IMG/VR virus record: IMGVR_UViG_3300045988_080466
Length of the DNA: 64,000 nt
Source: a virus
Reading direction: 5' to 3' (one strand)
The notes below the pieces were generated by a model. That model was not told where the DNA came from and ran no database searches. It saw only the letters and a program-made list of their open reading frames with translations. The position numbers and the translations under genes were made by a program. Shown here one piece after another: positions 41,866-61,566 of the stretch. Each line of letters begins with the position of its first letter. Position 1 is the first letter of the stretch.

Positions 41866-41877
41866 ATGAAAAAAAAT

Positions 41878-41921
41878 AAGGGCGCCAATCAAGTAGTTTT
41901 ACCTACCTGACTGACGCCCTT
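41878..41921. terminator. bidirectional hairpin terminator at the convergent junction
   Basis: AAGGGCGCCAATCA...TGACTGACGCCCTT forms an imperfect inverted repeat. It is preceded by an A-run and followed by a T-rich sequence, and sits between the + arm stop (41865) and the - arm stop (41927). Confidence 0.55.
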
Positions 41922-41926
41922 AAATT

Positions 41927-42613
41927 TTATCGTTCTAACATGTTCATAGTATCATCATAAGCTAATGTTATAGCTTTAATGTAATACTTCATATCCAAGT
42001 TGTTTTCAATTATTATGTCAACTCTTATATTATCAATAAGTTTCTCACTTATGTGATTTCCTGCCCCGCTGCCTTCTCGTTCTATTTTCCATAAAACTCC
42101 ACCAGCATTTCGTATAGCATCCGCTTCATTTGGAAATCTGACGTCAGGGACAATCCAAAAGCCTTTATCCCTTACCATAGAGGGCAAAAACATAGTACTG
42201 GATTTTTCATATCCTCGCATCAAGGCTTTTACCCATAGGTCCTTATCAATATTCCTTCCTACCTCTGTTCCGAAGTATTGAAGAAATTCTCTATTGGTCA
42301 TTGGCTCTCCCTCTTTATTAGACAGTGGAAGTGTAGTAAAAGACTCCTTGAAGGAATTATACTCAAAACTTTCTCTGCTTACTCCAAGTATTAATGACGC
42401 ACACTCCTTTAATTTATCAGCAAATGCATGCTTTTCCCATCTAGAACCTATAAAAATAGTCCCATTATTTAAGTTTTCTAAAACAAAATCTTCTTCTGAA
42501 ATTTTTAGTCGTTCTTCGTCTCCCAATAAGTATCTATAGTAGTCTACTAATTGTACTATTTTACACGCAGTATCCTTCCCTGATTGGGCTTTTCCTGTTA
42601 TTCCAATTATCAT
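41927..42613 (-). CDS. deoxynucleoside monophosphate kinase-like P-loop kinase
   Basis: N-terminal GITGKAQSGKDT P-loop and VPDVRFPNEADAIR, a pattern I associate with phage dNMP kinases. Confidence 0.65.
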   Translation of the reverse strand: MIIGITGKAQSGKDTACKIVQLVDYYRYLLGDEERLKISEEDFVLENLNNGTIFIGSRWEKHAFADKLKECASLILGVSRESFEYNSFKESFTTLPLSNKEGEPMTNREFLQYFGTEVGRNIDKDLWVKALMRGYEKSSTMFLPSMVRDKGFWIVPDVRFPNEADAIRNAGGVLWKIEREGSGAGNHISEKLIDNIRVDIIIENNLDMKYYIKAITLAYDDTMNMLER

Positions 42614-42828
42614 TTCATGTAGTATTTTAGTTCATTAAGAACAAAAGTAGGGTCCAAATACGGCATCTTTTCCTTAATTTTGTTATATTGCTCGACAAGT
42701 TCTTTTTTGTCAGTTATTTTATCAGAAAACCCTAAGAAACCGTCACTGTCAGGCTTAAGAATAAGTCTGTGAATTTCACATGAAATTGCAAAGAGTATCG
42801 GGTCTGACGTCTCAAGATTGTTCATCAT
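42610..42828 (-). CDS. hypothetical protein (72 aa)
   Basis: ATG ORF with 4-nt overlaps to both neighbours; no recognised motif. Confidence 0.5.
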   Translation of the reverse strand: MMNNLETSDPILFAISCEIHRLILKPDSDGFLGFSDKITDKKELVEQYNKIKEKMPYLDPTFVLNELKYYMK

Positions 42829-43286
42829 ACAACATACGATTTTACTAAGTCGGAAATTTGTTTACCGTCTGCAGCAGGGAACTTATCTTTCATTCCTTTA
42901 ATTATTGTTCCCATATCCTTTTTTGGAATTGCAAGACTGTCGATTTTATCTTGTACCTTATAAATCAAAGCTAAGTCAAACAGACCCTTACGCAACTGCT
43001 CTTCTCCGGGAATTTCAGGTAAGAACTCATTTAGGATAAGAGATTCTTGCATCTCTATATCATACAAATCCTGTCTGCCTGCCATACGGTATTGTTCAGC
43101 ATTATCGATGCGCTGGTCTCTCAACTTCTTAATAATAGCAATCTCTGTTGCTTTATCAAGGGGTTTGGCGTTTTTCTGCGTTTCATGTACTAAGAACGCA
43201 GTTTTTATTGCTCTAAGAACTTCTGTGCGAGTTCTTGTTTTAGCTTTCATTGATTGTTTAATCAGTTCATCAATATCCTCTTTCAT
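42825..43286 (-). CDS. GatB/YqeY-domain protein
   Basis: Full-length resemblance to YqeY: ELIKQSMKAKTRTRTEVLRAIKTAF, IIKKLRDQRIDNAEQYRMAGRQDLYDIEMQESLILNEFLPE, KKDMGTIIKGMKDKFPAADGKQISDLVKSYV. Confidence 0.8.
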   Translation of the reverse strand: MKEDIDELIKQSMKAKTRTRTEVLRAIKTAFLVHETQKNAKPLDKATEIAIIKKLRDQRIDNAEQYRMAGRQDLYDIEMQESLILNEFLPEIPGEEQLRKGLFDLALIYKVQDKIDSLAIPKKDMGTIIKGMKDKFPAADGKQISDLVKSYVV

Positions 43287-43476
43287 TGTCTTCCAATATA
43301 TTTAAAATTATACCTCCTACACCCATCAACAATATGGCAGAGATACATACTCCAAACCATACATTAAGTGAGTATGCAAACACTAGAAGTAGTACCACTA
43401 AGGTTATACCTCCGAGCCCAATAGCTCCAAGTGCAAAAAATAGTGCCAATCGTTTTCGTAAATCTTCTTTATCCAT
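43270..43476 (-). CDS. small membrane protein (two hydrophobic helices)
   Basis: LALFFALGAIGLGGITLVVLLLVFAY and WFGVCISAILLMGVGGIILNI; overlaps both neighbours. Confidence 0.55.
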   Translation of the reverse strand: MDKEDLRKRLALFFALGAIGLGGITLVVLLLVFAYSLNVWFGVCISAILLMGVGGIILNILEDNERGY

Positions 43477-43861
43477 TTTTCTTTATAGTATGTCTCCTCT
43501 TTATATTTTGAGCAGTACCACTATTCCAACGACCTTCTCTTACATAGGCTATATCAACATCAGATACTCTGGTCATTGCAGCATCACGCTCTTCATCAGT
43601 TTTGTAATGACCCATGTAGCTAACTCTTGATTCATCTTTAGGAGTGTTTCTTGGACTATCAAACATATGATATATAACTACTCCACAAGGAAGGTTTTCT
43701 GTTATGAAATCCATAGCCATTTTGTCTACTCCTTCATAATCACCTACTACGAAATTCTCGAAATCAGAATCATTGTAGTAGGCAGAGTAAATAGCTGGAA
43801 CGTAGTACTTCTTAAATTCTTCTTCTGTAATGTCTCTATGTCCGCTTATAAAATATATCAT
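43469..43861 (-). CDS. Rossmann/SLOG-like (DUF2493-like) nucleotide-binding protein, tentative
   Basis: The pattern YFISGHRDIT...NFVVGDYEGVDKMAMDFI...SGTAQNIKRR resembles the GxRD / G..G.D layout of SLOG-type domains. ATGA overlap with the Nudix gene. Confidence 0.35.
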   Translation of the reverse strand: MIYFISGHRDITEEEFKKYYVPAIYSAYYNDSDFENFVVGDYEGVDKMAMDFITENLPCGVVIYHMFDSPRNTPKDESRVSYMGHYKTDEERDAAMTRVSDVDIAYVREGRWNSGTAQNIKRRHTIKKNG

Positions 43862-44412
43862 GGAACTATTTGTGCGTCTAAGTCTTTTTCAAAGACGTTA
43901 ATATTATACCAAGAAATTGCTTCAAGTATTCTATCTTCATGGTTAAATGCCCATTTGTATTTTGAAATATCTCTTATAGGAACCCATTGGATAGTTTTTA
44001 CTTCATTTTTCTCACCATCTCCATTCAATACAGCTTCCATAGAAGTAGATACATTATCTTTTCCGTATTTAAGAATGGTCATATAACGTAATGTTACATT
44101 GCCGTTATTACAGTGTTCTGGGTCTGTTTCAACTCCAAATAAAGCCCACTTAGATGGGTCAATTTTGACTCCAGTTTCCTCAAATGCTTCACGAGAACAA
44201 GCTTCTTCTGCTTTCTCCATATCCAAGAAACCACATGGACAATTCCAGTAACCTTGGAAATCGGGAGTTCCTTCTCCTCTTTGGTTAGCCAAGACACACC
44301 ATTCGCCCTTGATTTTACAAAATGCGAATGCAGCAACTGCACAATATCGACCAGACCAAAGTGTTTTACCAGCGTGCTCTCCTTCTTTAATTGTATAACT
44401 CCAATTTCTCAT
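43858..44412 (-). CDS. Nudix hydrolase
   Basis: Near-canonical Nudix box GFLDMEKAEEACSREAFEETGVKI (E-x7-REx2EExGU; the G-to-E spacing is one residue short). Confidence 0.8.
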   Translation of the reverse strand: MRNWSYTIKEGEHAGKTLWSGRYCAVAAFAFCKIKGEWCVLANQRGEGTPDFQGYWNCPCGFLDMEKAEEACSREAFEETGVKIDPSKWALFGVETDPEHCNNGNVTLRYMTILKYGKDNVSTSMEAVLNGDGEKNEVKTIQWVPIRDISKYKWAFNHEDRILEAISWYNINVFEKDLDAQIVP

Positions 44413-44840
44413 TTATGTCTTCTTTTTGTTTTAGTTGTAACTTCCTTCTCGGATACTTCCAGAGGATTGTACTTTAGTTCATTGTAGGGTGTTAATGCAG
44501 TGCCTCCAATTCCTACTAAAGTCTTTTTATCATACTCTGATTTATATATAGATAGTACTTTATCAGTTTTTCTTTTGTATGCAATATACACTGGAATATT
44601 CTTTTTTATGCAGGTTTCAAGTTCGTTCTTGGTTCCTCTAGTCATGTCTTCGACTTTAGTTCCCCAATCAAACTCATTTATAATAAACACTGCAATATCA
44701 GAATCAGTTAATAAAGAACTCTCATATTTAGTTCCCATTTTCCAGTGGTTTGGCTCATAACCAAGAGAGTCCAGAAATATTTCTACTTCTGGAACTAGGT
44801 TGGCATGTTGCATACTATAAGATACATATGCTTTATTCAT
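44409..44840 (-). CDS. nucleoside 2-deoxyribosyltransferase-like (DUF4406/NDT-fold) protein, tentative
   Basis: SDIAVFIINEFDWG...TRGTKNELETCIKKNIPVYI resembles the NDT-family layout (D....GT..E...A...gkPV). ATG at 44840 is preferred over the track's TTG at 44891. Confidence 0.4.
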   Translation of the reverse strand: MNKAYVSYSMQHANLVPEVEIFLDSLGYEPNHWKMGTKYESSLLTDSDIAVFIINEFDWGTKVEDMTRGTKNELETCIKKNIPVYIAYKRKTDKVLSIYKSEYDKKTLVGIGGTALTPYNELKYNPLEVSEKEVTTKTKRRHK

Positions 44841-45393
44841 CTTTATAAAGATTAAATCGGTGAATGTATTGGCTAATAGCTTTAGGTACAAGAGGGTAAA
44901 TTTGTTTCTTGTCCTTAACCAAATACCTAATCATAGTAGAGCTTACGTCAAAAGTACAACTAATATACCCATCCACCTTCGCCTTGAATGAACTGTTGGC
45001 TCTATTTACTGCAATCAGCTTAAAGTTTTCTAATATCCATTCTCCTTCCTTCCAATTTGCAACATCATCTACAATGTCTGCACCTACAATCAGATAAAGT
45101 TCTTCGTTTGGATAATATTCCTTCAAAAGTTGTAGGGTTTGATAGGAATAGTGAGGTTCTGGAGTGTAATAGTCAATACTAGATATTGTGCAATTATCAA
45201 TTTCATCAATAGCCAGTTGTGTCATAAAACACCGGTGTTGAAATTCAGTTGCTTCGCGGTCTTTCCACACATTCTGCATAGTTGGAACCACCACTACTTC
45301 GTCAACCAAGTTATCATTTAGTGCTGATGTAATCATGTACAAATGACCCATGTGGATTGGGTCAAATGTTCCTAATAAAAATCCTACTTTCAT
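44833..45393 (-). CDS. nadD: nicotinate-nucleotide adenylyltransferase (NadD/NMNAT family)
   Basis: GTFDPIHMGHL (HxGH nucleotidyltransferase motif), IVGADIVDDVANW and DVSSTMIR (ISSTxIR motif). ATG at 45393 is preferred over the track's TTG at 45435. Confidence 0.8.
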   Translation of the reverse strand: MKVGFLLGTFDPIHMGHLYMITSALNDNLVDEVVVVPTMQNVWKDREATEFQHRCFMTQLAIDEIDNCTISSIDYYTPEPHYSYQTLQLLKEYYPNEELYLIVGADIVDDVANWKEGEWILENFKLIAVNRANSSFKAKVDGYISCTFDVSSTMIRYLVKDKKQIYPLVPKAISQYIHRFNLYKDE

Positions 45394-45395
45394 TT

Positions 45396-45929
45396 TTAAA
45401 ATAATGTTATTTCTTTTGTTGTTATATCGTAGCAATCTATAATTGCTTTTAATCCATTCGGTTTTATTTCTCTGGTTCCGATTCCAGCAAAGTCTAATCG
45501 TAAAACCGGGGTTTCACTATGTTTCCATTCTGAAAGTTCAATGTCATAGGTAAACCAACGGCTCCTTGATTGGTCAAATACAAATACATCCTTATCAGAA
45601 TCAATTGCCATTTGTACTGCCCAACCTGTTCCTCCCTTAACAGTGTTCCCATTAAATCCTTCTGCAATAGCATATATTGCATCAGAGTTTTTGACTTGAC
45701 ACCAATTTCTGGAAAGCAAAAACATATACTTTTCAAAGTTTTGCCTTTTTAAAGTATTGTTAGCTCTATATACAGCACACTTACCTTCTTCATATGCGCT
45801 ATTGCTTATTGGAAAATTTCCTCTTGGAGTTTTATTAATATAGTAGTAGTGACGAACTACTTCAAGACCATAGACTCTACCTATAATATCCCACATAGTG
45901 TCACTACCATCAGCTCCTCCAGAGTGCAT
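45396..45929 (-). CDS. Rossmann/SLOG-like protein with SGGAxGxD motif, tentative
   Basis: MHSGGADGSDTMWD...VKGGTGWAVQMAI...FAGIGTREI has a DprA/LOG/YpsA-like glycine-rich nucleotide-binding signature. ATG at 45929 is preferred over the track's GTG at 45956. Confidence 0.35.
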   Translation of the reverse strand: MHSGGADGSDTMWDIIGRVYGLEVVRHYYYINKTPRGNFPISNSAYEEGKCAVYRANNTLKRQNFEKYMFLLSRNWCQVKNSDAIYAIAEGFNGNTVKGGTGWAVQMAIDSDKDVFVFDQSRSRWFTYDIELSEWKHSETPVLRLDFAGIGTREIKPNGLKAIIDCYDITTKEITLF

Positions 45930-45936
45930 AATATAA

Positions 45937-46395
45937 TTAGTCAACAAAGTATCCACGAGAGTCCAATTCTTTTGATAAAAAACTAATAGCTTCTACACTG
46001 TATCGTTCGGTCAACTCCTCTATTTCATTGAGTAAATCATTAACCAAATCAGATACACCACAGAACCCTATATTTCCCACGAAATCGACAAGATTTTTAA
46101 TAAGTTCGGGGTCATCTACCTCGAACTTCATTTCATCCTCGAAATCATCAGGAAGATAATCGTCGTCAGCATTATAGTATCTTTCTTGAACATATACTTC
46201 CACCAAGTCAAGAGTGGCATGGACTACTTCCTCTTCAAGTCTAACAGTCAATCTGAATGCTTGAGAATCATCGTCCATTTTCTCAACTATCATATAGAAA
46301 GATTCTTCCCATGTATAATCATGGTCAGATACAAGATAGTTGGCTTCTTTTAGAGCAACTAATAACTGCTCATATATTTCGTCAATCGTTTTCAT
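45937..46395 (-). CDS. highly acidic hypothetical protein (152 aa)
   Basis: By eye roughly 30% Asp+Glu (e.g. YYNADDDYLPDDFEDEMKFEVDDPE) and few basic residues. Embedded in the NAD operon. Confidence 0.55.
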   Translation of the reverse strand: MKTIDEIYEQLLVALKEANYLVSDHDYTWEESFYMIVEKMDDDSQAFRLTVRLEEEVVHATLDLVEVYVQERYYNADDDYLPDDFEDEMKFEVDDPELIKNLVDFVGNIGFCGVSDLVNDLLNEIEELTERYSVEAISFLSKELDSRGYFVD

Positions 46396-47293
46396 ATTTT
46401 TCTCGTGTTATATAAATGGGAGCTTTCTTACGTTTAAACTCTGATGCTGTATGACGTTTGATAATCTTATGAACGACTTCTCTTCCAAGTTCTTGTTCTA
46501 AAGAATCTTGAAGTTTATCATTCTCTGGAGAAGCTTTACAAATAAGAGTTTGTAATACTCTATCAACGTCATAATAGGTCCTGGCACCTATCTGCTCCAA
46601 GTCACTATTACTAATGCCGAGACCGTCAGTAGGAGTAAGAGCTACAGACTCTCTAATAGCTTGGATTTTATCCACATCTTCACCATCGCTCATCATTGTG
46701 TAGTAATCGCAAATCCATCTGGCTAACCTATAAACCTCAGTCTTCCACAGGTCTTGAATTGGGTCAAAGTCGCCTACATCACCATGAATAGTCCAGAATC
46801 CAAGCTGATATTCAGTTTGATTATCTGTACTCATTACTAATCCTTTATGGCGACTAGCTATATCATATAGATACATCATTCTGCACCTAGCTTGAAGATT
46901 ACCATTAGCAATAGGAGTTCTACTAGGCATTTCTTCTAGTTCATCGAGATAGTAAGAATTAGCCATATTGACATCACCTGCATCAGCACAGGCATCAAAC
47001 AAAGCTGCACGATAGGAACGTTCAAGTCTGTAAACACTAAATTCATTACAGAAGGCTTCTCCTACATGTACAGAAGTAGCGAACTCATCACTTTTATTCT
47101 TAATAGGAAGACTTCTTCCTATAAGAGGAATACCAGTCTTCTTACTAACCTCATGGCATATGGCAGCAACAACAGTGGAGTCAATTCCTCCACTGATGCC
47201 TAATACCATTGCTTTCAAACCATTAGAAGTAACATAATTTGCTGTTTCTTCTACTAAGGTATTAAATACCTTTTCATAATTTAATTCTTTCAT
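46382..47293 (-). CDS. nadE: NH3-dependent NAD+ synthetase
   Basis: PP-loop GISGGIDSTVVAA, plus TEYQLGFWTIHGDVGDFDPIQDLWKTEVYRLARW, typical of NadE. Confidence 0.85.
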   Translation of the reverse strand: MKELNYEKVFNTLVEETANYVTSNGLKAMVLGISGGIDSTVVAAICHEVSKKTGIPLIGRSLPIKNKSDEFATSVHVGEAFCNEFSVYRLERSYRAALFDACADAGDVNMANSYYLDELEEMPSRTPIANGNLQARCRMMYLYDIASRHKGLVMSTDNQTEYQLGFWTIHGDVGDFDPIQDLWKTEVYRLARWICDYYTMMSDGEDVDKIQAIRESVALTPTDGLGISNSDLEQIGARTYYDVDRVLQTLICKASPENDKLQDSLEQELGREVVHKIIKRHTASEFKRKKAPIYITREKYEND

Positions 47294-47451
47294 TGTTTTA
47301 CTCGTTTAAGATAATAAACTATTACCCGACTGGAAACTCTGCCTCCTGATAAGAACTTAACTATAGTTGCGACTAATTCCCAACCGTCATCGCCCAGTCG
47401 ATTAAGCTCTTCGCAGGTAATGTCTGTTTTTTCTAAATATTCAAATTTCAT
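47290..47451 (-). CDS. small DUF4177-like protein (53 aa)
   Basis: MKFEYLEKTDITCEELNRLGDDGWELVATI (LN..G..GWELV pattern). The ATG at 47451 forms ATGA with the pncB stop; the track start is a TTG. Confidence 0.45.
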   Translation of the reverse strand: MKFEYLEKTDITCEELNRLGDDGWELVATIVKFLSGGRVSSRVIVYYLKRVKQ

Positions 47452-48608
47452 AGTCCAAGTTCTGCTAAACAAGAGTTAACTTCCATTGCACGTCCCGTAT
47501 GTTTGCCTTCATCATCAGATAGCTTTACACAGTCATATACCGGCTGATTAGAGTTCATCTGACAAGATGTAAGTTTCATAACAATGTTAGAGGGTTTAAA
47601 TCCAGTGTCATTGGTAAGGTTTGTACCTATACCGAACGATGCTCTAATTCTAGTCATACAATAGAGAGCAATATCTTCAGCCTTTTCAAAATCCAAAGCA
47701 TTACTAAAGATAATGGTTTTCGTAGTTGGGTCTATGCCCAATTCTTTATAGCGAGCAATCATTTTATTTACAAATTCATACTCGTCTCCAGAATCACATC
47801 GTACTCCGTCAAACAACTTAGCTTGTTTACGTGAGAAGTTCTTGATGAATACATTCGATGTGTAAGTATCGGTAAGAGCTATTCCCAAGTCTCCGTCATA
47901 GACATTTACCCAATTCTCAAGAGCCATATAATTAGCTTGTTTGTAACCGTACATAGCGCCATGAAACATAAACCATTCATGTGGATGTGTTCCCATTGGT
48001 TTCATGTCATACTTCATCGCAAAGTAACAGTTGGAAGTTCCGGTACAATAGATTGATTTCTCTTTAATATACTTAATAACTTCTTCTTGTATATTGTAAG
48101 AGAATCTTCTACGAGTTCCAAATTCAGAGAAATAAATTCCTGATTGATTGGAACGTTTGATTTTACTTTCCAATTTATTAAGCATTACAGGAATGTTGAC
48201 CTTATAGCCTAACATCCTATTTCTTAATTCTGAAACCATTGCAAGAATAGGAACTTCATAAAGAGAAACTTTATAAAGATAATCCTTCGCTATAATGTGA
48301 AGATGCTTTTCTTCATCCAAGAAGATTTGTACTTTACTTGGGTTAAATGTGAATTGAGACAACCATTCCCAGTAATGTCTTGGGATGAATCGAATAGAGT
48401 TCATAAACTCAAATTCATCACTTGTAAGTCTTACTTGAGCAAGGTTATATAACTCAATACGAAGTTGCTCAACAAACTCTTCTGTGTATTCAGTATTATC
48501 ACGGTCTTTAAACTCAAAAGTTCCTACCGCTTGTGGAAACAACTTCATGTAAGCATAAGAAGTTGTAAACTTGTATAAATCTGTATCTAAAATTGATTTA
48601 ATTATCAT
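47448..48608 (-). CDS. pncB: nicotinate phosphoribosyltransferase
   Basis: The N-terminus SILDTDLYKFTTSYAYMKLFPQAVGTFEFKDR parallels E. coli PncB SLLDTDAYKLHMQQAV. Length of 386 aa is typical. Confidence 0.8.
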   Translation of the reverse strand: MIIKSILDTDLYKFTTSYAYMKLFPQAVGTFEFKDRDNTEYTEEFVEQLRIELYNLAQVRLTSDEFEFMNSIRFIPRHYWEWLSQFTFNPSKVQIFLDEEKHLHIIAKDYLYKVSLYEVPILAMVSELRNRMLGYKVNIPVMLNKLESKIKRSNQSGIYFSEFGTRRRFSYNIQEEVIKYIKEKSIYCTGTSNCYFAMKYDMKPMGTHPHEWFMFHGAMYGYKQANYMALENWVNVYDGDLGIALTDTYTSNVFIKNFSRKQAKLFDGVRCDSGDEYEFVNKMIARYKELGIDPTTKTIIFSNALDFEKAEDIALYCMTRIRASFGIGTNLTNDTGFKPSNIVMKLTSCQMNSNQPVYDCVKLSDDEGKHTGRAMEVNSCLAELGL

Positions 48609-49213
48609 TTCTCTATTGGTTGATAAATGTTTAACTTATTTTCTTTTATAAATTCTTGGAGTGCTGTTCCACCATCAATAGATGCAATTCCTGGGAGATA
48701 TACTGAAAGTCTATCCCAAATAGGTTGCAAGTTCTTAATTGTGTTAAGTACACAATAATCTCCTGCAACTCCACAAATTACAATTTCTGATTCATTCGAA
48801 AGGTATATGTCAGCTCTACTATCGTAAATATCATCAAGTGAATAAGTATAATGGCTTTTCCTGTTTGGGTCACGTTTAAGGTCTGGAAAAGCCCCATATT
48901 CCTCTTTAAACAGTCCTTTCTCAATTACATCGTATCGGAGATTATTATTCCTACAAGCTGTAAGAAGTAAATCATTAATTGCCGCACCTTGGGAATATTG
49001 GACACAATGAACTGGCCACTCTCCTCCATTTTCTTTAAAAGAGGGATGAAAGAAAGCGTGCCAGTCCACAGTAAACCACACTCTATCAAAATGCTCTTTA
49101 TACATTAATTCTTCTATATTCCATAGAGCGGGAGTAGCCCCTTTTACATATAAAGAGCCACTCTCTAAGCAGAAATCATTCTGCATATCAACTACTATAA
49201 GTATTTTACTCAT
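48605..49213 (-). CDS. pncA: nicotinamidase (isochorismatase family)
   Basis: ILIVVDMQNDFC (catalytic Asp region), VDWH and GVAGDYCVLNT (catalytic Cys). Confidence 0.8.
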   Translation of the reverse strand: MSKILIVVDMQNDFCLESGSLYVKGATPALWNIEELMYKEHFDRVWFTVDWHAFFHPSFKENGGEWPVHCVQYSQGAAINDLLLTACRNNNLRYDVIEKGLFKEEYGAFPDLKRDPNRKSHYTYSLDDIYDSRADIYLSNESEIVICGVAGDYCVLNTIKNLQPIWDRLSVYLPGIASIDGGTALQEFIKENKLNIYQPIEK

Positions 49214-49398
49214 CGACTCCAGCTACTAAATATTCCTACAATTGCAACAATAGCCAACCATAAGGCTATCGGAATCCATAATGGGCTTAAGACCCACCAC
49301 CAAGACCAAGCTATGACACCACATAGCTTAAGAACAATAAATACTATAAGAAGAACTCCACCTATGCCAATTCCTCCACTACTGTTACTATTACTCAT
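49210..49398 (-). CDS. small Trp-rich membrane protein (62 aa)
   Basis: GGVLLIVFIVLKLCGVIAWSWWWVLSPLWIPIALWLAIVAIVGIF; ATGA overlaps on both sides. Confidence 0.55.
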   Translation of the reverse strand: MSNSNSSGGIGIGGVLLIVFIVLKLCGVIAWSWWWVLSPLWIPIALWLAIVAIVGIFSSWSR

Positions 49399-50090
49399 AA
49401 TTCAATTATTAAAGGTTCAAACGATTGAATGTATCTCTCGTCTACTAAAGACACATTTGCCATTTTCATATCATCTAAAGTCATCAATCTGTGTTCTCCT
49501 GAATGAATGTGTCCACAGAAAGCATACTTTGGATGTTTTCTCATAATTTCATCAGCCAACCAAGGATTACCTGCATCCTCTCTAGTCCACGACTGATGAA
49601 TAATACCTAATCCACACAGCTTAGGAGCATCGTGTGAGATTACTATATCACAATGTTCGGGCATTGTGGAGTACGCTTCTATAAGAGTTTTCTCCTCATA
49701 CATATATGCCCAATTTCCAAATATCTTGCAATATGGAGTTCCCCAAATTGTGTATTCAGTTCCATCTTTATAATCAATGTAAGTATATGACTCATTATCG
49801 AGCATTACTAACTTCCCATCAGTGGGAGTATAAAGAAGGGAATTTTTGGAAAGAGTATTCTGATATATAGACGCTAATGCGAAGTCATGATTTCCGCCTA
49901 CCATAAATACTTTTTCACAAGGTAAATCTTTTACCCATTGAGCAAATTCATGACTAAGCCATTTCTTGCTTTGTGGGATATTTCTTTGCATCTTTAGTGG
50001 GGTAATATCCCCACAGATTAAGTAAATATCACACTCTTCTTTTATTTCTGGAAGAATCCCATGTAAGTCTGATAATGCGCCAAATTTCAT
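49395..50090 (-). CDS. metallophosphoesterase (calcineurin-like)
   Basis: LSDLHG, CGDITP, GGNHD, ISHDAP and CGHIHSG give the full MPP motif series. Confidence 0.8.
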   Translation of the reverse strand: MKFGALSDLHGILPEIKEECDIYLICGDITPLKMQRNIPQSKKWLSHEFAQWVKDLPCEKVFMVGGNHDFALASIYQNTLSKNSLLYTPTDGKLVMLDNESYTYIDYKDGTEYTIWGTPYCKIFGNWAYMYEEKTLIEAYSTMPEHCDIVISHDAPKLCGLGIIHQSWTREDAGNPWLADEIMRKHPKYAFCGHIHSGEHRLMTLDDMKMANVSLVDERYIQSFEPLIIEL

Positions 50091-50338
50091 TTATGTTTCC
50101 TAGTTTTTATGTATTTCTTACTCTCTAATTGTTGGGAAGGAAGAACAAGAGTAACATCTATTTCTATGATTTCTCCTTCTTTGGGGAGGTCTGCATAGTC
50201 AGTAAGGGAGTAGTAGATGTAAGAATTAATTTCTTCATATTCTTCATCGTCTTCCCACCAAACTCCGTCTTCATTAAGGGCTGGTTTTGCTCTCCACAAA
50301 CACAGTCCTTCTTCGTCTTTTGTTATCCAAAGTCTCAT
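50087..50338 (-). CDS. hypothetical protein (83 aa), paralog set member
   Basis: ATG ORF with 4-nt overlaps. The N-terminus WITKDEEGLCLWRAKP...GVWWEDD resembles those of the next two genes. Confidence 0.5.
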   Translation of the reverse strand: MRLWITKDEEGLCLWRAKPALNEDGVWWEDDEEYEEINSYIYYSLTDYADLPKEGEIIEIDVTLVLPSQQLESKKYIKTRKHK

Positions 50339-50811
50339 TCTGTTACTTTCTTTTTAAATTCTTCAAACGACTTTATCTCTGGAACCTCGTCTCTGTTAAT
50401 TATCCAATATTTACTTGGAGCTTTACCTTTATGATTGGCTCTATATTGGTTATACATATCGGCAATTTCAAAGAATACTTCAATGTTCTCTCCCATAGCG
50501 TCTGCCAAATCCTCTATTTTAAATATAAAGTATTTGAACTGATTTCCATTTTCATCTTTCCTTGAATACAAGTCTTTTATAAATGTACTCATGGGTGGTA
50601 TTTCCACTGGCTCGTCTTCCCATGTCTGATTTCCAGCATAGAAATAAAACATCTCTTTATATATTGGCATCAAGTCTGGAACAAAATCGAATGATATAAC
50701 ATCGTCATCCTCTACCCATTCTTTTTCTCCTTCTCCACGTTTGGGATAACCACACGTATCAATAAGCCATTGCTTGCCGCTTTTATCGGTTACTGCATAT
50801 GTTTTTCTCAT
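50335..50811 (-). CDS. hypothetical protein (158 aa), paralog set member
   Basis: N-terminus TYAVTDKSGKQWLIDTCGYPKRGEGEKEWVEDDD. Confidence 0.55.
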   Translation of the reverse strand: MRKTYAVTDKSGKQWLIDTCGYPKRGEGEKEWVEDDDVISFDFVPDLMPIYKEMFYFYAGNQTWEDEPVEIPPMSTFIKDLYSRKDENGNQFKYFIFKIEDLADAMGENIEVFFEIADMYNQYRANHKGKAPSKYWIINRDEVPEIKSFEEFKKKVTE

Positions 50812-51023
50812 ATTTCAATTTCAAATTTTATAGGTTCATCCATGTATGTCATGCCTTCTGGAATGGGAAAGTTAAATAGATGTGCAGAGTGTAAATCATT
50901 AGTACACTCATACATATCATATTTAGGGTCTACATTCCAGCTTTCACCATCAAAGATAGGAGGGTTATCGTAAAACCAACCTCTTCCATCTTTATCTATC
51001 GCGTAATAATAAGTTTTAATCAT
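50808..51023 (-). CDS. hypothetical protein (71 aa), paralog set member
   Basis: N-terminus TYYYAIDKDGRGWFYDNPPIFDGESWNVDP. Confidence 0.5.
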   Translation of the reverse strand: MIKTYYYAIDKDGRGWFYDNPPIFDGESWNVDPKYDMYECTNDLHSAHLFNFPIPEGMTYMDEPIKFEIEI

Positions 51024-51228
51024 TACTAAGAGTCACAGTCCCCTCAAACTTGTACAATTTGTCGGAATCAGTGTAACTTACTAGGGTTGGAACATCTACA
51101 GGCTTTCCTGGATGCTTAAGAAGCCGAATATAACCATTGTGCATTAGGATGCCAATATTTCCAAGCTCGTCTATTACTAGGTCTCCTGCTTTTGGCATTT
51201 CGTCATTTCTATTCACTTCAACTTTCAT
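51016..51228 (-). CDS. hypothetical protein (70 aa)
   Basis: ATG ORF that overlaps both neighbours. Confidence 0.5.
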   Translation of the reverse strand: MKVEVNRNDEMPKAGDLVIDELGNIGILMHNGYIRLLKHPGKPVDVPTLVSYTDSDKLYKFEGTVTLSND

Positions 51229-51611
51229 TCCTTCAAGTCTCCCATTACGTTACGGTTAAGCCTGTCATCAATTCTCTCCTTACAAGCGTCAAGGTAAGCT
51301 TCTAGAGCAGCAACTTGTTTAGCATTTTGCTCACAAGGGAACTTCTCATTCAACTTCTTTACTCTGTCAAGCAGGATAAGGGCAAGTTGTTCTGATTGCC
51401 ACCCTGGAGTTACTGTACCGTCTTCGTGCTTGTGAACAAACTGAATTGTGTCAGTAGCATTCACATACTTGGTTTTGCCATTAACAAAGCCAGCACACAT
51501 TTTAGCACGGTAGCGATGAGCACCATCGTCTGGAATTACTTCAATGGTTGGTTCGAGACTTGGATAAACCAATAATTCCTCTATTGTTTGATATTTCTTT
51601 TTTAAAGCCAT
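51225..51611 (-). CDS. conserved phage hypothetical protein (128 aa)
   Basis: The C-terminal pattern SEQLALILLDRVKKLNEKFPCEQNAKQVAALEAYLDACKERIDDRLNRNVMGD resembles a widespread phage helical domain that I cannot name with confidence. Confidence 0.55.
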   Translation of the reverse strand: MALKKKYQTIEELLVYPSLEPTIEVIPDDGAHRYRAKMCAGFVNGKTKYVNATDTIQFVHKHEDGTVTPGWQSEQLALILLDRVKKLNEKFPCEQNAKQVAALEAYLDACKERIDDRLNRNVMGDLKE

Positions 51612-51624
51612 GGTATTTTATTGT

Positions 51625-51801
51625 TTAATCATTATATGATATTATCTTGTAATATACGGTACTACCTACCCAACGCCAACCCAGATAATTTACTGGAACC
51701 CATGCAGGTTTACTAAGCAAATCTCTAAATTCTAATGGTGTTAGATTACGTACTATATCTGTTTGTGGTGATGCTCCCTCAAGACTTATTAATACCTTCA
51801 T
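51625..51801 (-). CDS. unlisted small ORF (58 aa)
   Basis: Hand translation gives MKVLISLEGASPQTDIVRNLTPLEFRDLLSKPAWVPVNYLGWRWVGSTVYYKIISYND. It fills the apparent 167-bp gap, and its ATG lies 23 nt inside the upstream gene's 3' end. It falls below the track's 60-aa cutoff. Confidence 0.4.
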   Translation of the reverse strand: MKVLISLEGASPQTDIVRNLTPLEFRDLLSKPAWVPVNYLGWRWVGSTVYYKIISYND

Positions 51802-52684
51802 GTTTTAACCAGTCTTGGAAGTACCACAATTGTCCACATCCTCCACCAATATCATCCTGACCAGCAGGATTGAATACTCTTGTGGAGAAACCTAATTCGC
51901 AGAGTCTTCTGTTAAAGTCTCTAATAAGACGAATTTGTCTATCAATAGAATTCTTTACAGTTTCATCCTTTTCACAAATTACAGAAAGAGTAGTTTCCCA
52001 AACATCGGTTCGAAAGAGTTTGTACAGTCTCCTTGCGTCTTCTTCTGTATCATTTCCTTCATGTACACAGTAATTGAAGAATGGTTTTCTTCCTGTGTTC
52101 GCTGCCCAAAATTCTCCCGCAGCAGCAATCTGGCGGAGAGTACAAGTCTTAGTCGGAATTAATTTTGCTCTAGCTTCATCAGTTGATTCATGTACAGAAA
52201 ACTGCAATCCGACTTGAGGTATTCTCTTGGAAAGCTCAATAAACTCTGACATTGCATGATACAATGTAGATGGAGCAGATGTAGATACTAATAATTGAGC
52301 ATTTGGATACAAATCGTGTAAAGACTCAATAGCTCGCTCCAAATTGATACAATTCAGAAATGGCTCTCCCATACTCATGAACATAATTTGGAACTTTTCA
52401 ATGTCTTTAGTATCACAATCAATAGTACTTAAAACAGTAGTTACTTGTTCTACTATTTCATGCCAATCAAGATTCCTTACAAAGAACTTTCCTGTTCCAC
52501 AGAATGTACAGCCAACCGGACATCCAGACTGTACAGAACAGCAAATTACTGTTCTCTTCGCGTATTCTCCATAACGATAAAGGACTGCTTCTGCAATTCC
52601 TTTTTTCGTTACTGCACTAGCTCCCCATTCAAATACAAACTTCTTGACATTAGTGTCAGAAGATTCAAAAATCTTATATTCCAT
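51779..52684 (-). CDS. RlmN/Cfr-family radical SAM RNA methyltransferase homolog lacking the N-terminal accessory domain
   Basis: Colinear with E. coli RlmN from about residue 95. ICCSVQSGCPVGCTFC aligns with LCVSSQVGCALECKFC (CxxxCxxC plus the upstream Cys118 equivalent). MSMGEPFLN aligns with MGMGEPLLN, VSTSAP with LSTSGV, and DDIGGGCGQL with DDIDAACGQL (Cys355 equivalent). Confidence 0.75.
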   Translation of the reverse strand: MEYKIFESSDTNVKKFVFEWGASAVTKKGIAEAVLYRYGEYAKRTVICCSVQSGCPVGCTFCGTGKFFVRNLDWHEIVEQVTTVLSTIDCDTKDIEKFQIMFMSMGEPFLNCINLERAIESLHDLYPNAQLLVSTSAPSTLYHAMSEFIELSKRIPQVGLQFSVHESTDEARAKLIPTKTCTLRQIAAAGEFWAANTGRKPFFNYCVHEGNDTEEDARRLYKLFRTDVWETTLSVICEKDETVKNSIDRQIRLIRDFNRRLCELGFSTRVFNPAGQDDIGGGCGQLWYFQDWLKHEGINKS

Positions 52685-52686
52685 TT

Positions 52687-53271
52687 TTAACCTCTTAAAT
52701 TTCTTTTAGTGATTATTTCCTTTAATTGCTGCCAAGATACTGGTGTGTAATCATTATTATCTACACCAACATCATATTGATTTGGGACTAATTTATCTTC
52801 AAAAGGAGTTTTCTTTCCTTTTTCAGTATGAATGTGTCCATACAATTGCCAACTTCCTCTATGAGAGCCATCCCATGTAATCATAGGATAGTGACTCATA
52901 AAGAGTTGTTGGTTATTACATTCTTCATCACCTGTTATAGTAATCATCATCTGTCTTTCAACAGCTTCGAACCCATTTTCTGGGATGTATTTCAGCTTAT
53001 CATGATTACCTAATATGAGGTATTTATAGCCGTTTAGTTGAGGTAAAATTTTCTCCCAACGTGTCTTTTGACCAAAGCAAAAATCGCCCAATATGAAGAC
53101 TGTATCGTCCCACTGGACTACCTTATTCCAATTTAGTATGAGTTGTCGATTCATTTCGTCAGCAGACTCAAACGGACGACTACAATACTTAATTATATTT
53201 GCGTGGTCAAAGTGACAATCAGAAGTGAAAAATACCTTATTACAGTCAAATTTATTTGTCAGATTTGCCAT
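52687..53271 (-). CDS. metallophosphoesterase
   Basis: FFTSDCHFDHANII, ILGDF, LGNHD, MSHYP and YGHIHT. Confidence 0.8.
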   Translation of the reverse strand: MANLTNKFDCNKVFFTSDCHFDHANIIKYCSRPFESADEMNRQLILNWNKVVQWDDTVFILGDFCFGQKTRWEKILPQLNGYKYLILGNHDKLKYIPENGFEAVERQMMITITGDEECNNQQLFMSHYPMITWDGSHRGSWQLYGHIHTEKGKKTPFEDKLVPNQYDVGVDNNDYTPVSWQQLKEIITKRNLRG

Positions 53272-60902: not shown

Positions 60903-61098
60903 AATATACTACTTGTTTAATTACTTTTTCCTCACCTTCATAAGTAGCACCTACTATTTGTTCTAGATTATATTCAGGATATTCTAGACCATGAGGATAC
61001 TCCTTTATAATTTCCATAGCTCGAAAGGCATTACGGGCAGCAACTACAATCAGTCCTGCCGCATAATGTCCATGAAATTCATTTGTATATAAATACAT
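60895..61098 (-). CDS. hypothetical protein (67 aa)
   Basis: ATG ORF that overlaps its neighbours. Confidence 0.45.
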   Translation of the reverse strand: MYLYTNEFHGHYAAGLIVVAARNAFRAMEIIKEYPHGLEYPEYNLEQIVGATYEGEEKVIKQVVYYE

Positions 61099-61553: not shown

Positions 61554-61566
61554 TTTTATTTAATTT

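What the first reader, a model, noticed from the sequence alone, without database searches (positions are those of the whole stretch)
43469..49213. Ten-gene translationally coupled NAD+ operon encoding a complete Preiss-Handler route (PncA-PncB-NadD-NadE) plus Nudix and Rossmann/SLOG-like proteins
Seen in sequence: ten same-strand ORFs have stops and starts that overlap or abut. There are ATGA overlaps at 43858, 44409, 47290, 47448, 48605 and 49210, an 8-nt overlap at 44833-44840, and a 14-nt overlap at 46382-46395. Clear signatures are present for nicotinamidase (DMQNDF, GVAGDYCV), nicotinate phosphoribosyltransferase (ILDTDLYKFT), NaMN adenylyltransferase (GTFDPIHMGHL, SSTMIR), NAD synthetase (SGGIDS PP-loop) and a Nudix box (REAFEETGV). 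Together these cover nicotinamide to nicotinate to NaMN to NaAD to NAD+. Established knowledge: many abortive-infection systems (TIR and SIR2 effectors, e.g. Thoeris or DSR) deplete NAD+ into nicotinamide and ADP-ribose. Phage NAD+ reconstitution pathways described so far use Adps/Namat or Nampt/Nmnat-type enzymes (e.g. the KVP40 NadV/NatV type). Inference: this is a different, deamidating four-enzyme route carried by a crAss-like phage. The Nudix enzyme and the three SLOG/NDT-like proteins could handle ADP-ribose or ADPR-derived signals.
Basis: partly seen in the sequence, partly recalled or inferred. Interest (0 to 1): 0.85.

Follow-up and report, generated by a model that had tools for sequence, protein, structure and literature searches.

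The report
Phage-borne nicotinamide-to-NAD+ salvage gene cassette
A crAss-like gut phage carries its own complete four-enzyme route from nicotinamide to NAD+, plus an ADP-ribose-type Nudix hydrolase. The cassette is conserved in many gut phages and is a plausible but untested way to keep NAD+ up when the host tries to destroy it.

Summary
Ten overlapping minus-strand ORFs lie at 43469-49213, and HMMs and alignments to solved structures confirm PncA, PncB, NadE, NadD and a Nudix, all with catalytic motifs intact. The "ten-gene operon" is not a discrete unit. The same 4-8 nt overlaps run through at least 23 genes, and the only strong terminator is at 41.9 kb. The conserved module is PncA-PncB-NadE-NadD plus the Nudix: 68 of 80 viral PncB loci in IMG/VR hold all four enzymes, and 66 also hold the Nudix. 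g3, g5, g6 and g8 are variable accessories. PncB is 67-69% identical to Bacteroides/Phocaeicola PncB, which stands alone in those genomes, so the cassette was assembled in phages. All genes are under purifying selection, yet many natural deletion variants exist. The Nudix is closest to ADP-ribose-binding NrtR/NadM Nudix domains. g10 has a SLOG fold, g8 is NDT-like, and g6 is a domain found in giant polyvalent proteins next to NADAR and ART domains. The novelty is smaller than claimed: Preiss-Handler clusters were reported in silico in gut jumbo phages (2024), and NARP3 also exists. The anti-defence role is untested.

The parts
48605..49213 (-). g1, PncA-like nicotinamidase (202 aa): nicotinamide -> nicotinate + NH3
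   Evidence: Pfam Isochorismatase scores 35.6 bits (cutoff 27). The NCBIfam PncA equivalog scores only 45.7, well below its cutoff of 174. All eight solved-structure hits are nicotinamidases (3r2j, 1im5, 2h0r, 3pl1 and others). Catalytic D9, K99 and C154 and metal ligands D50/H52/H69 align. dN/dS is 0.04-0.2.
47448..48608 (-). g2, PncB nicotinate phosphoribosyltransferase (386 aa): nicotinate + PRPP -> NaMN
   Evidence: TIGR01514 scores 430 bits (cutoff 270), and both NAPRTase_N and NAPRTase domains are present. The best solved match is 2im5, the Porphyromonas gingivalis NaPRTase (E 6e-117), with the GTHPHEW motif conserved. It is 67-69% identical to Bacteroides/Phocaeicola PncB. dN/dS is 0.01-0.07.
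47290..47451 (-). g3, small variable ORF (53 aa from the ATG; 60 aa from the TTG at 47472), DUF4177/Sp36-like
   Evidence: The hits are weak (DUF4177 24 bits, below cutoff; Sp36_fam E 9e-8, below cutoff). It is absent from several close relatives and duplicated in L012.
46382..47293 (-). g4, NadE, single-domain NH3-type NAD+ synthetase (303 aa): NaAD + ATP + NH3 -> NAD+
   Evidence: TIGR00552 scores 131 bits (cutoff 64) and Pfam NAD_synthase gives E 1e-40. Best solved matches are NH3-dependent NadE structures (1xng, 3p52), and the SGGIDS PP-loop is present. Its alleles are mosaic between otherwise near-identical phages (63-100% identity).
45937..46395 (-). g5, strongly acidic protein of unknown function (152 aa, pI 4.05, 27% D+E); variable accessory
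   Evidence: No Pfam, NCBIfam, PHROG or PADLOC hit. It occurs only in the window-type lineage. dN/dS is 0.11-0.15.
45396..45929 (-). g6, variable accessory domain protein (177 aa from the ATG), DprA/SLOG-like; the same domain occurs inside giant polyvalent-type proteins
   Evidence: phrog_768 'DprA-like' gives E 1.9e-9. The family has 1617 representative clusters, most of the listed ones being a domain inside 2000-7200-aa proteins. It is fused with NADAR and ART-PolyVal domains, or with primase and NADAR. There is no sequence link to the PDB or to g10. It is present in only some relatives.
44833..45393 (-). g7, NadD nicotinate-mononucleotide adenylyltransferase (186 aa from the ATG): NaMN + ATP -> NaAD
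   Evidence: TIGR00482 scores 142 bits (cutoff 112). The best solved match is B. subtilis NadD 1kam (E 3e-25), and both the GTFDPIHMGH and SSTMIR motifs align.
44409..44840 (-). g8, nucleoside 2-deoxyribosyltransferase (NDT/'DrHyd')-like Rossmannoid protein (143 aa from the ATG); semi-conserved accessory
   Evidence: AF2 model pLDDT is 81. Foldseek against the PDB finds TIR domains and DNPH1 (TMq 0.39-0.47, E >= 3e-3). Against BFVD the best named hits are nucleoside 2-deoxyribosyltransferases (E from 5.8e-4). T67-x-G69-T-x-x-E73 is conserved. The assignment is weak.
43858..44412 (-). g9, Nudix hydrolase (184 aa), probably an ADP-ribose-type pyrophosphatase; fifth conserved member of the module
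   Evidence: Pfam NUDIX scores 49 bits. The catalytic REx2EE box is intact. The family profile's best full-length solved matches are 3gz8/3gz5 (E 6.6e-7) and 2fml (E 4.3e-4), which I recall as NrtR proteins, with 2qjt NadM-Nudix at 7e-4. Weak NCBIfam hits are to NadM-Nudix and the ADPR-responsive NtrR. It is linked to PncB in about 69 of 80 viral loci despite changing position.
43469..43861 (-). g10, SLOG-fold (YspA-like) protein (130 aa); adjacent to the module but also found without it
   Evidence: AF2 model pLDDT is 91.5. The only coherent Foldseek matches are SLOG-fold proteins (LOG 5zbl TM 0.62, DprA 4ljk, YgdH 9us2, MCP 2iz5), with E >= 0.017. One source names a homologue 'YspA'. Homologues sit next to YqeY in large phages and in a Lak megaphage that have no NAD genes nearby.
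49210..49398 (-). tm62, small Trp-rich two-helix membrane protein; overlaps the PncA start by 4 nt and is conserved upstream of PncA in crAss-like lineages
   Evidence: GRAVY is 1.40. A small ORF also follows the metallophosphoesterase in cassette-less cr1_1, so this gene may belong to the backbone.
49395..50090 (-). Calcineurin-like metallophosphoesterase (231 aa); backbone gene marking the upstream edge of the insertion, not part of the module
   Evidence: Pfam Metallophos. Homologues occur in many cassette-less crAss phages such as cr55_1, cr1_1, cr50_1 and cr108_1.
41927..43476 (-). Downstream continuation of the same coupled array: tm68 (43270-43476), YqeY (42825-43286), a 72-aa ORF (42610-42828) and dNMP kinase (41927-42613)
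   Evidence: The junctions overlap by 8, 17, 4 and 4 nt. Pfam assigns YqeY and DNMK. YqeY is also linked to the cassette in distant lineages.
41877..41922 (-). Strong terminator-like hairpin (20-bp stem, 9 GC pairs, then T8) at the convergence of the two gene blocks; probable 3' end of the transcription unit
   Evidence: No comparable site lies within 41927-52684 on the minus strand.

Best explanation
The region encodes a working, phage-assembled, deamidating NAD+ salvage route. PncA converts nicotinamide to nicotinate. PncB joins nicotinate to PRPP to give NaMN. NadD adenylates NaMN to NaAD. An ammonia-type NadE amidates NaAD to NAD+. A fifth conserved partner, a catalytically intact Nudix related to ADP-ribose-binding Nudix domains, most likely splits ADP-ribose into AMP and ribose-5-phosphate, which host Prs can turn back into the PRPP that PncB needs. 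Expressed as part of a long, translationally coupled replication and nucleotide-metabolism transcript, the module would let the phage rebuild NAD+ from the two products of NAD+ cleavage in an infected Bacteroides/Phocaeicola cell. The most likely selective benefit is survival of NAD+-depleting abortive-infection defences (TIR, SIR2 and similar), by analogy with NARP1-3. The variable SLOG-like and NDT-like accessories would be optional extras acting on nucleotide or ADPR-derived molecules. Shown here: gene presence, family membership, catalytic motifs, conservation, selection and origin. Inferred: enzyme activities, the Nudix substrate, the PRPP loop and the anti-defence role.
For: Family membership above curated cutoffs for PncB, NadD and NadE, and nicotinamidase-specific catalytic and metal residues in PncA. 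All four enzymes lie within 10 kb of PncB in 68 of 80 viral loci, 66 of them with the Nudix. The order PncA-PncB-NadE-NadD is conserved down to 54% PncB identity, while the Nudix keeps its linkage although its position changes. Purifying selection acts on every gene (dN/dS 0.01-0.2; 0.2-0.4 between divergent NadE alleles). PncB is host-lineage derived (67-69% to Bacteroides/Phocaeicola), but the bacterial gene has none of the partners within 5 kb, so phages brought the pathway together. PncA's substrate, nicotinamide, is a direct product of NADase effectors. The Nudix's nearest solved relatives are NrtR and NadM Nudix domains, which bind or hydrolyse ADPR (PMC2330246). The g6 domain is fused to NADAR and ART-PolyVal domains elsewhere. 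That fits the published prediction that viral SLOG, NADAR and Nudix proteins process ADPr derivatives (PMC9503650). Precedents: NARP1/2 and NARP3.
Against: No activity or phenotype data exist. PncA is far below the NCBIfam equivalog cutoff (45.7 against 174). The Nudix substrate is inferred from weak similarity (E about 1e-6), and the window copy has Gx4E where the box normally has Gx5E. The host lineage already has PncB, so the phage genes duplicate at least part of a host capability. Four steps costing several ATP may be slow against a fast NADase. The cassette sits with nucleotide-metabolism genes at the end of the replication block and not in an obvious early or anti-defence cluster. About 20 independent natural deletions show it is dispensable in some settings. 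No NAD+-depleting defence of the hosts was examined.
Confidence: 0.6

Rival explanations
1. The enzymes are the same, but the purpose differs. The cassette is a general auxiliary metabolic module that raises or maintains the NAD+ pool for phage replication in niacin- or nicotinamide-rich gut conditions, or after host shut-off, independent of any NAD+-depleting defence.
For: It sits among nucleotide-metabolism genes (dNMP kinase, ThyX, metallophosphoesterases) at the end of the replication block. This is the reading given for the Preiss-Handler clusters of 'NAD-jumbo phages' (PMC11662467). Frequent natural deletions fit a conditionally useful metabolic booster.
Against: No NAD+-consuming enzyme (NAD-dependent ligase, SIR2, ART) was found in the 22 kb of replication block inside the window. 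The tight and repeated linkage to an ADPR-type Nudix and to PncA (both act on products of NAD+ cleavage), and the company of ADPr-network domains, is better explained by NAD+ breakdown being the trigger.
Confidence: 0.3
2. The Nudix and the Rossmannoid proteins are the main actors. The locus chiefly destroys or sequesters ADPR-derived immune signals (for example Thoeris gcADPR) or removes NAD caps, and the salvage enzymes are secondary.
For: Viral SLOG, Nudix and NADAR domains are predicted to process ADPr signals (PMC9503650). g10 has a SLOG fold, g8 an NDT/TIR-like fold, and g6 is fused to NADAR and ART domains elsewhere.
Against: g6, g8, g5 and g3 are variable or absent in most lineages that keep the four enzymes. 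g10 occurs with YqeY without any NAD genes. None of these proteins matches a defence-system sensor HMM. The fold matches are weak.
Confidence: 0.07
3. The region is an artefact: bacterial DNA mis-assembled into a phage contig, or decaying passenger genes.
For: PncB is clearly of Bacteroidales origin. Deletion variants exist.
Against: The same syntenic cassette is flanked by crAss backbone genes in dozens of independent viral contigs and in GenBank MT835470. The bacterial PncB loci lack the partner genes. dN/dS is well below 1. GC content and skew are continuous with the flanks.
Confidence: 0.02

Closest known systems
Preiss-Handler NAD+ gene clusters of gut 'NAD-jumbo phages' (PMC11662467, Microbiome 2024; e.g. 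Kuafu_71 pncB-nadD-nadE)
   Same: Phage-encoded, clustered pncB, nadD and nadE from gut metagenomes, with mainly Bacteroidota hosts. The evidence is bioinformatic only. My IMG/VR survey also finds the module on 212-435 kb contigs and in the 735-kb phage LR756501.
   Different: The carrier here is a crAss-like phage on contigs of about 84-188 kb, not a phage over 200 kb. PncA is an integral first step, so the input is nicotinamide. An ADPR-type Nudix is a conserved fifth member. The crAss literature I could search does not mention NAD genes.
NARP2 (Nampt + Nmnat, e.g. Vibrio phage KVP40 NadV/NatV; Osterman et al. 2024)
   Same: Starts from nicotinamide and PRPP, uses classical salvage chemistry, and pairs salvage enzymes with a Nudix. 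That the KVP40 NatV protein carries a Nudix domain is from my memory; PMC9503650 describes the NadM-Nudix fusion.
   Different: NARP2 has two non-deamidating steps through NMN. Here there are four steps through nicotinate, NaMN and NaAD with re-amidation. PncB is a true NaPRTase (TIGR01514) and not a Nampt. NARP2 is experimentally proven to counter defence, whereas this cassette is not.
NARP1 (Adps + Namat) and NARP3 (PnuC + NadR)
   Same: Phage operons that restore NAD+ after depletion by host immunity.
   Different: No PRPS-like Adps, Namat, PnuC or NadR is present. NARP1 ligates ADPR-PP directly to nicotinamide, whereas here ADPR would at most be recycled to ribose-5-phosphate. NARP3 imports nicotinamide riboside.
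Bacterial PncA-PncB-NadD-NadE deamidating salvage
   Same: Same four enzyme families and chemistry. PncB is 67-69% identical to Bacteroides/Phocaeicola PncB.
   Different: In those bacteria PncB is not clustered with the other three genes. The phage NadE is a single-domain ammonia-type enzyme. The genes are fused into one phage cassette with a Nudix.

Membership tests
Nicotinamidase (PncA) within the isochorismatase superfamily | Catalytic Asp-Lys-Cys triad plus the Asp/His/His metal site that distinguishes nicotinamidases | tested here: met
   D9, K99, C154 and D50/H52/H69 align with P. horikoshii, Leishmania and yeast nicotinamidases, and all eight PDB hits are nicotinamidases. The residue roles come from established knowledge of PncA structures.
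Nicotinamidase (PncA) within the isochorismatase superfamily | Score above the curated equivalog cutoff | tested here: not met
   NCBIfam NF008623 scores 45.7 bits against a cutoff of 174. Only the superfamily-level Pfam cutoff is passed (35.6 against 27).
Nicotinate phosphoribosyltransferase (PncB, TIGR01514 type) | N-terminal and catalytic NAPRTase domains, score above the equivalog cutoff, conserved phospho-histidine motif | tested here: met
   430 bits against a cutoff of 270. Both Pfam domains are present. GTHPHEW is identical to the P. gingivalis enzyme 2im5.
NaMN adenylyltransferase (NadD) | (H/T)xGH and ISSTxxR motifs, score above the equivalog cutoff | tested here: met
   TIGR00482 scores 142 against a cutoff of 112. 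GTFDPIHMGH and SSTMIR align to B. subtilis NadD 1kam.
NAD+ synthetase (NadE) | PP-loop SGGxDS ATP pyrophosphatase domain, score above cutoff; an absent glutaminase domain marks the NH3-dependent type | tested here: met
   TIGR00552 scores 131 against a cutoff of 64. SGGIDS is present. The protein is 303 aa, single-domain, and its best solved matches are NH3-dependent NadE structures.
Complete deamidating salvage (PncA + Preiss-Handler) pathway | The four enzymes actually convert nicotinamide to NAD+ | not testable with these tools
   Needs in vitro reconstitution or genetic complementation.
ADP-ribose pyrophosphatase subfamily of Nudix hydrolases | Intact Nudix box GX5EX7REUXEEXGU | tested here: met
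   REAFEETGV and the upstream Glu are present. Relatives L012 and L001 have canonical Gx5E, and the window copy has Gx4E.
ADP-ribose pyrophosphatase subfamily of Nudix hydrolases | Closest characterised relatives are ADPR-specific, and the enzyme shows activity on ADPR | tested here: inconclusive
   The best full-length solved matches are 3gz8/3gz5 and 2fml, with 2qjt NadM-Nudix further down (E 7e-7 to 7e-4). That 3gz5/3gz8 and 2fml are NrtR structures is from memory; for 3GZ5 the only support is a co-mention with NrtR in PMC3262759. The NCBIfam hits are far below cutoff. Activity was not tested.
Phage NAD+ reconstitution pathways (NARP1, NARP2, NARP3) | Signature genes: Adps+Namat, Nampt+Nmnat, or PnuC+NadR | tested here: not met
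   None of these families is detected. The PRTase is an NaPRTase and the adenylyltransferase is NadD-type.
Phage NAD+ reconstitution pathways (functional class) | Restores NAD+ and rescues the phage on hosts with NAD+-depleting defence | not testable with these tools
   Requires infection assays with NADase systems.
'NAD-jumbo phage' Preiss-Handler cluster (PMC11662467) | pncB, nadD and nadE clustered on a phage genome | tested here: met
'NAD-jumbo phage' Preiss-Handler cluster (PMC11662467) | Genome larger than 200 kb | tested here: not met
   Contigs of the window-type and L012-type lineages are 84-188 kb, and the related GenBank record is 117 kb. The window's own genome length is unknown.
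Crassvirales (crAss-like phages) | Replication genes closest to crAss phages; a giant virion-RNAP-type ORF with DFDxD; the characteristic two-block layout | tested here: met
   PolA is 44-51% identical to Steigviridae members such as cr111_1 and crAss001, and to IAS virus. The layout matches cr111_1. DFDID lies at aa 2298 of the 3290-aa ORF.
Crassvirales (crAss-like phages) | Hallmark capsid, portal and terminase homology | not tested
   These genes were not identified in the window. The structural ORFs gave almost no PHROG hits, and the giant ORF matches only two unannotated gut records. This is a deep, unclassified lineage.
SLOG superfamily (g10) | SLOG-type Rossmannoid fold | tested here: inconclusive
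   The model is confident (pLDDT 91.5). The coherent matches are LOG, DprA, YgdH and MCP at TM 0.5-0.62, but with E >= 0.017. The family profile has no sequence hit in the PDB.
Nucleoside 2-deoxyribosyltransferase-like / TIR-like (g8) | NDT fold with the catalytic Glu motif | tested here: inconclusive
   TMq is 0.39-0.47 to DNPH1, TIR domains and viral NDT-like proteins. A conserved GTxxE motif is present. There is no HMM hit.
Single ten-gene operon | Own promoter and terminator delimiting exactly these ten genes | tested here: not met
   The overlaps continue on both sides. The only strong terminator is at 41877-41922. Promoter-like sites occur at chance frequency, although Bacteroides and crAss promoters are not covered by the scan.

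The most novel reading that the evidence does not exclude
This is a fourth, mechanistically distinct class of phage NAD+ reconstitution pathway (a 'NARP4'). It would be a five-gene, deamidating module, widespread in Bacteroidales-infecting gut phages including crAss-like phages. It would rebuild NAD+ from both NADase products: nicotinamide through PncA, PncB, NadD and NadE, and ADP-ribose through the Nudix to ribose-5-phosphate and PRPP. It would therefore defeat SIR2, TIR and RES-type depletion whatever is done to the ADPR moiety. Swappable SLOG-like and NDT-like accessories would neutralise ADPR-derived immune signals.
Probability: 0.35. Interest if true: 0.75.

Novelty: new member of a known kind. 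Interest (0 to 1): 0.55.

Why it matters
crAss-like phages are the dominant viruses of the human gut, yet little is known about how they cope with Bacteroides immunity. A conserved, phage-assembled nicotinamide-to-NAD+ route with a coupled ADPR-type Nudix gives a concrete, testable candidate counter-defence. The natural deletion variants offer ready-made controls. It would extend NAD+ reconstitution from the two-gene NARP1-3 systems of enterobacterial and vibrio phages to a deamidating route in Bacteroidales phages. It also shows that the 'NAD-jumbo phage' trait is not restricted to jumbo genomes. If the role is only metabolic boosting, it is still an unusually complete phage-encoded cofactor pathway.

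Tried and rejected
- Separate promoter or terminator for the ten genes: none found. Sigma-70-like sites are at chance level, and the Bacteroides -33/-7 pattern occurs twice in the window, neither near the cassette.
- Capture of a host operon: rejected, because the bacterial PncB loci lack PncA, NadE, NadD and the Nudix within 5 kb.
- The upstream metallophosphoesterase as part of the module, possibly an ADPR-1P phosphatase as in extended NARP1: rejected. It is a backbone gene of cassette-less crAss phages, and the published phosphatase is detected as a Macro-domain protein (Methods heading).
- g6 as a detectable relative of g10 or of solved SLOG or DprA proteins: hhalign probability 1%, and no PDB sequence hit.
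- Pfam at E up to 10 and PADLOC for g5, g6, g8 and g10: nothing usable.
- g10 as a core pathway member: weakened, because it pairs with YqeY in phages without NAD genes.
- Similarity of the giant structural ORFs to the crAss RNAP block of cr111_1 by tblastn: none at E of 1e-5 or better.
- tRNAs and Rfam families in the window: none.
- An NAD+-consuming enzyme in the window that could explain a private NAD+ need: none found in 41.9-64 kb.

Full report
OBSERVATION. Between 43469 and 49213 the minus strand carries ten consecutive ORFs. All quoted junctions are exact: ATGA overlaps at 43858, 44409, 47290, 47448, 48605 and 49210, an 8-nt overlap at 44833-44840, and a 14-nt overlap at 46382-46395. 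With ATG starts, the g5/g6 and g6/NadD junctions are 7-nt and 2-nt gaps. The packing is not special to these genes. From the radical-SAM gene at 52684 down to the dNMP kinase gene ending at 41927 there are 22 junctions, of which 19 overlap and 3 are gaps of 13 nt or less. The only strong terminator-like hairpin (20-bp stem plus T8) lies at 41922-41877, where the minus-strand block meets the plus-strand block. Promoter-like sites occur at chance frequency. GC skew flips at about 41.9 kb. The "ten-gene operon" is therefore a slice of a much longer coupled array.

WHAT THE GENES ARE. HMM searches assign g2 to PncB (TIGR01514, 430 bits against a cutoff of 270), g7 to NadD (TIGR00482, 142 against 112) and g4 to NadE (TIGR00552, 131 against 64). 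g9 is assigned to NUDIX, and g1 to the isochorismatase superfamily. For g1 the PncA equivalog model scores well below its cutoff. Against solved structures, g1 matches only nicotinamidases and keeps the Asp-Lys-Cys triad (D9, K99, C154) and the Asp/His/His metal site (D50, H52, H69). PncB's best match is the Porphyromonas gingivalis enzyme (E 6e-117), with the GTHPHEW motif identical. NadE is a single-domain ammonia-type enzyme with the SGGIDS PP-loop. NadD aligns end to end with B. subtilis NadD, including both signature motifs. The in-silico case for nicotinamide -> nicotinate -> NaMN -> NaAD -> NAD+ is complete.

THE NUDIX. Its catalytic box is intact; the window copy has Gx4E, while two relatives have the canonical Gx5E. 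A profile of three phage copies finds its best full-length solved matches in 3gz8/3gz5 (E 6.6e-7) and also 2fml. I recall these as NrtR proteins; for 3GZ5 this is supported only by a co-mention with NrtR in PMC3262759. The profile also hits the NadM-Nudix 2qjt (E 7e-4). NrtR Nudix domains are most similar to ADPR pyrophosphatases and bind ADPR, and an intact Nudix signature goes with ADPR pyrophosphatase activity (PMC2330246). Weak NCBIfam hits point the same way. An ADPR -> AMP + ribose-5-phosphate activity is therefore the best guess, but it is inference.

THE OTHER PROTEINS.
- g10 gives a confident model (pLDDT 91.5). Its only coherent structural neighbours are SLOG-fold proteins (LOG, DprA, YgdH, MoCo carrier; TM 0.5-0.62; E >= 0.017). 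One database source calls a homologue YspA.
- g8 (pLDDT 81) weakly resembles TIR domains and DNPH1 in the PDB. In the viral structure library it resembles proteins named nucleoside 2-deoxyribosyltransferase. It keeps a GTxxE motif.
- g6 hits only a PHROG labelled DprA-like. An exhaustive HMMER scan shows it is a widespread domain: 1617 representative clusters, most of the listed ones embedded in 2000-7200-aa proteins. It is fused to NADAR and to the ART-PolyVal ADP-ribosyltransferase domain. This is the polyvalent-protein, ADP-ribose conflict network described by Iyer et al. (PMC9503650). A direct sequence link of g6 to g10 or to solved SLOG proteins was not found.
- g5 is a very acidic orphan (pI 4.05).
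- g3 is a small DUF4177-like ORF.

CARRIER AND ORIGIN. The DNA polymerase is 60% identical to an unannotated 117-kb human-gut record and 44-51% identical to cr111_1, crAss001 and IAS virus. The layout matches cr111_1 of Steigviridae: giant plus-strand ORFs converging on the end of the replication block. A 3290-aa ORF carries DFDID. The structural ORFs are very divergent, so this is a deep crAss-like lineage. The cassette-less relatives cr111_1 and cr1_1 show the empty site. The metallophosphoesterase upstream of PncA is a backbone gene. PncB is 67-69% identical to chromosomal PncB of Bacteroides and Phocaeicola. There it stands alone, with none of the other cassette genes within 5 kb. The phage lineage therefore assembled the pathway itself.

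DISTRIBUTION AND SELECTION. In 50,697 deposited phage records, PncB occurs in 13, NadE in 32 and PncA in 5. Outside huge phages, only MT835470 and a 4-kb fragment carry all three. In IMG/VR a profile scan finds 181 viral contigs with PncB. Of the best 80, 68 have all four enzymes within 10 kb, 66 of those also have the Nudix, and 54 have g10. The order PncA-PncB-NadE-NadD holds down to 54% PncB identity and on contigs of 59-435 kb. The Nudix stays linked but moves: after NadD, before PncA, between PncA and PncB, or after PncB. g3, g5, g6 and g8 are variable, and other lineages insert different genes, for example an AAA+ ATPase in MT835470. Pairwise dN/dS is 0.01-0.2 for every cassette gene, and 0.2-0.4 between divergent NadE alleles. 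g10, in contrast, also occurs next to YqeY in large phages and in a Lak megaphage without NAD genes nearby, so its membership in the pathway is doubtful.

DELETION VARIANTS. A profile search with g8 returned about 20 chimeric proteins. Each joins an N-terminal piece of PncB, NadE or NadD to a C-terminal piece of g8, or g8 to the Nudix or YqeY, at different breakpoints. Two were checked on contigs and are real variants with microhomology at the junction: a 2846-bp deletion at CC, and a 638-bp deletion at ATGATGA seen on nine contigs of 50-200 kb. Intact forms are far more numerous (clusters of 325 and 94 members against singletons). The cassette is maintained by selection but is dispensable in some settings. 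This is the pattern expected of a conditionally useful accessory module.

MECHANISM AND RIVALS. The best-supported reading (confidence 0.6) is a working deamidating salvage route with a coupled ADPR-type Nudix that regenerates NAD+ from the products of NAD+ cleavage, most plausibly to survive NAD+-depleting defences. The arguments for it are as follows. PncA and the Nudix act on the two NADase products. The Nudix keeps its linkage through rearrangements. The accessory domains belong to the ADP-ribose conflict network. NARP1-3 provide a precedent. The main rival (0.3) is general NAD+ boosting, the interpretation given for jumbo phages. It is favoured by the location among nucleotide-metabolism genes and by the cassette's dispensability. 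Signal destruction as the primary role (0.07) is weakened by the variability of the Rossmannoid genes. An artefact (0.02) is excluded by synteny, selection and composition.

NOVELTY. NARP3 (PnuC+NadR) was published in 2026. A 2024 paper reported, in silico, that 174 of 668 gut jumbo phages encode complete salvage or Preiss-Handler pathways, including a pncB-nadD-nadE cluster. I found no report of this cassette in crAss-like phages. I also found no experimentally tested deamidating phage route. The broad survey of viral NAD+ systems lists only NadV, NadM and NadR. I therefore file it as a new member of a known kind. What is new is the crAss-like carrier, PncA as an integral first step, and the conserved Nudix partner.

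Noticed in passing
L026:951-1607, L027:6001-6375; proteins P0144-P0189 (L012-type relatives of window 44409-48608): About 20 different in-frame chimeras join N-terminal pieces of PncB, NadE or NadD to C-terminal pieces of g8, or g8 to the Nudix or YqeY. Each is an independent internal deletion of the cassette. Two were verified on contigs and have microhomology (CC; ATGATGA) at the junctions. Only deletions touching g8 could be seen, so the true number is probably higher.
   Followed up: partly
window 46382-47293 and 48605-49213 compared with L002-L017 and L035-L043: Phages that are 98-100% identical in the neighbouring genes carry NadE alleles only 63-86% identical and PncA alleles about 71% identical. 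This indicates allele swapping by recombination inside the cassette.
   Followed up: no
window 43469-43861 and 42825-43286; L023-L025:5190-7870: g10 (SLOG fold) and YqeY form a conserved pair in unrelated 255-380 kb phage contigs, about 1 kb downstream of a 230-aa SIR2-domain gene. A g10 homologue also sits in Lak megaphage MK250026.1. YqeY is also linked to the NAD cassette in distant lineages, and in L012 and L001 it is fused to a HAD-type phosphatase domain.
   Followed up: partly
window 45396-45929; proteins P0195-P0340: The g6 domain is a common module inside giant 2000-7200-aa proteins. In P0206 it follows ART-PolyVal and NADAR domains, and in P0214 it lies between a primase zinc finger and NADAR/Toprim. 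It has no Pfam model.
   Followed up: partly
LR756501.1 423214-431429 (735-kb huge phage): PncA-, NadE- and PncB-like genes lie clustered within 8 kb of this record. The NAD-jumbo-phage paper described the 735-kb phage as carrying only nadD.
   Followed up: no
window 41877-41922: A very strong hairpin (20-bp stem, 9 GC pairs, followed by T8) lies exactly between the convergent gene blocks. It is probably a bidirectional terminator.
   Followed up: no
window 14827-23988 and 23990-33862: Two giant ORFs (3053 and 3290 aa) have no PHROG hit. The second carries DFDID at residue 2298, the crAss virion-RNAP-type motif, and matches only two unannotated human-gut records (MT835470, MT835492).
   Followed up: partly
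window 59291-62940: An apparent RNA-repair set: a WDGH-domain protein (59291-59677), a PNKP-like kinase/HAD phosphatase (59677-60591) and an RNA ligase (61567-62940, phrog_968 E 4e-37). This could be a counter to host anticodon nucleases.
   Followed up: no
window 49395-50090 and 43858-44412: The backbone metallophosphoesterase matches the uncharacterised PADLOC defence-candidate family PDC-S10 (E 3e-32), and the Nudix matches PDC-S07 (E 4e-8). These 'defence candidates' may in fact be phage-derived genes.
   Followed up: no
window 45937-46395: g5 is a 152-aa, highly acidic protein (pI 4.05, 27% Asp+Glu) with no detectable homologues in any library. It is under purifying selection (dN/dS 0.11-0.15). 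Its composition is reminiscent of DNA-mimic anti-restriction proteins, but that was not tested.
   Followed up: no
L001:10152-11255: In MT835470 a 367-aa AAA+-type ATPase and an 85-aa lipoprotein-like ORF are inserted between NadE and NadD, where the window has g5 and g6. This slot is a hotspot for accessory gene exchange.
   Followed up: no
window 51779-52684, 52687-53271, 54275-55261: A radical-SAM protein (301 aa), a second metallophosphoesterase (194 aa) and a ThyX with a roughly 150-aa N-terminal extension lie upstream in the same array. Their functions here were not examined.
   Followed up: no
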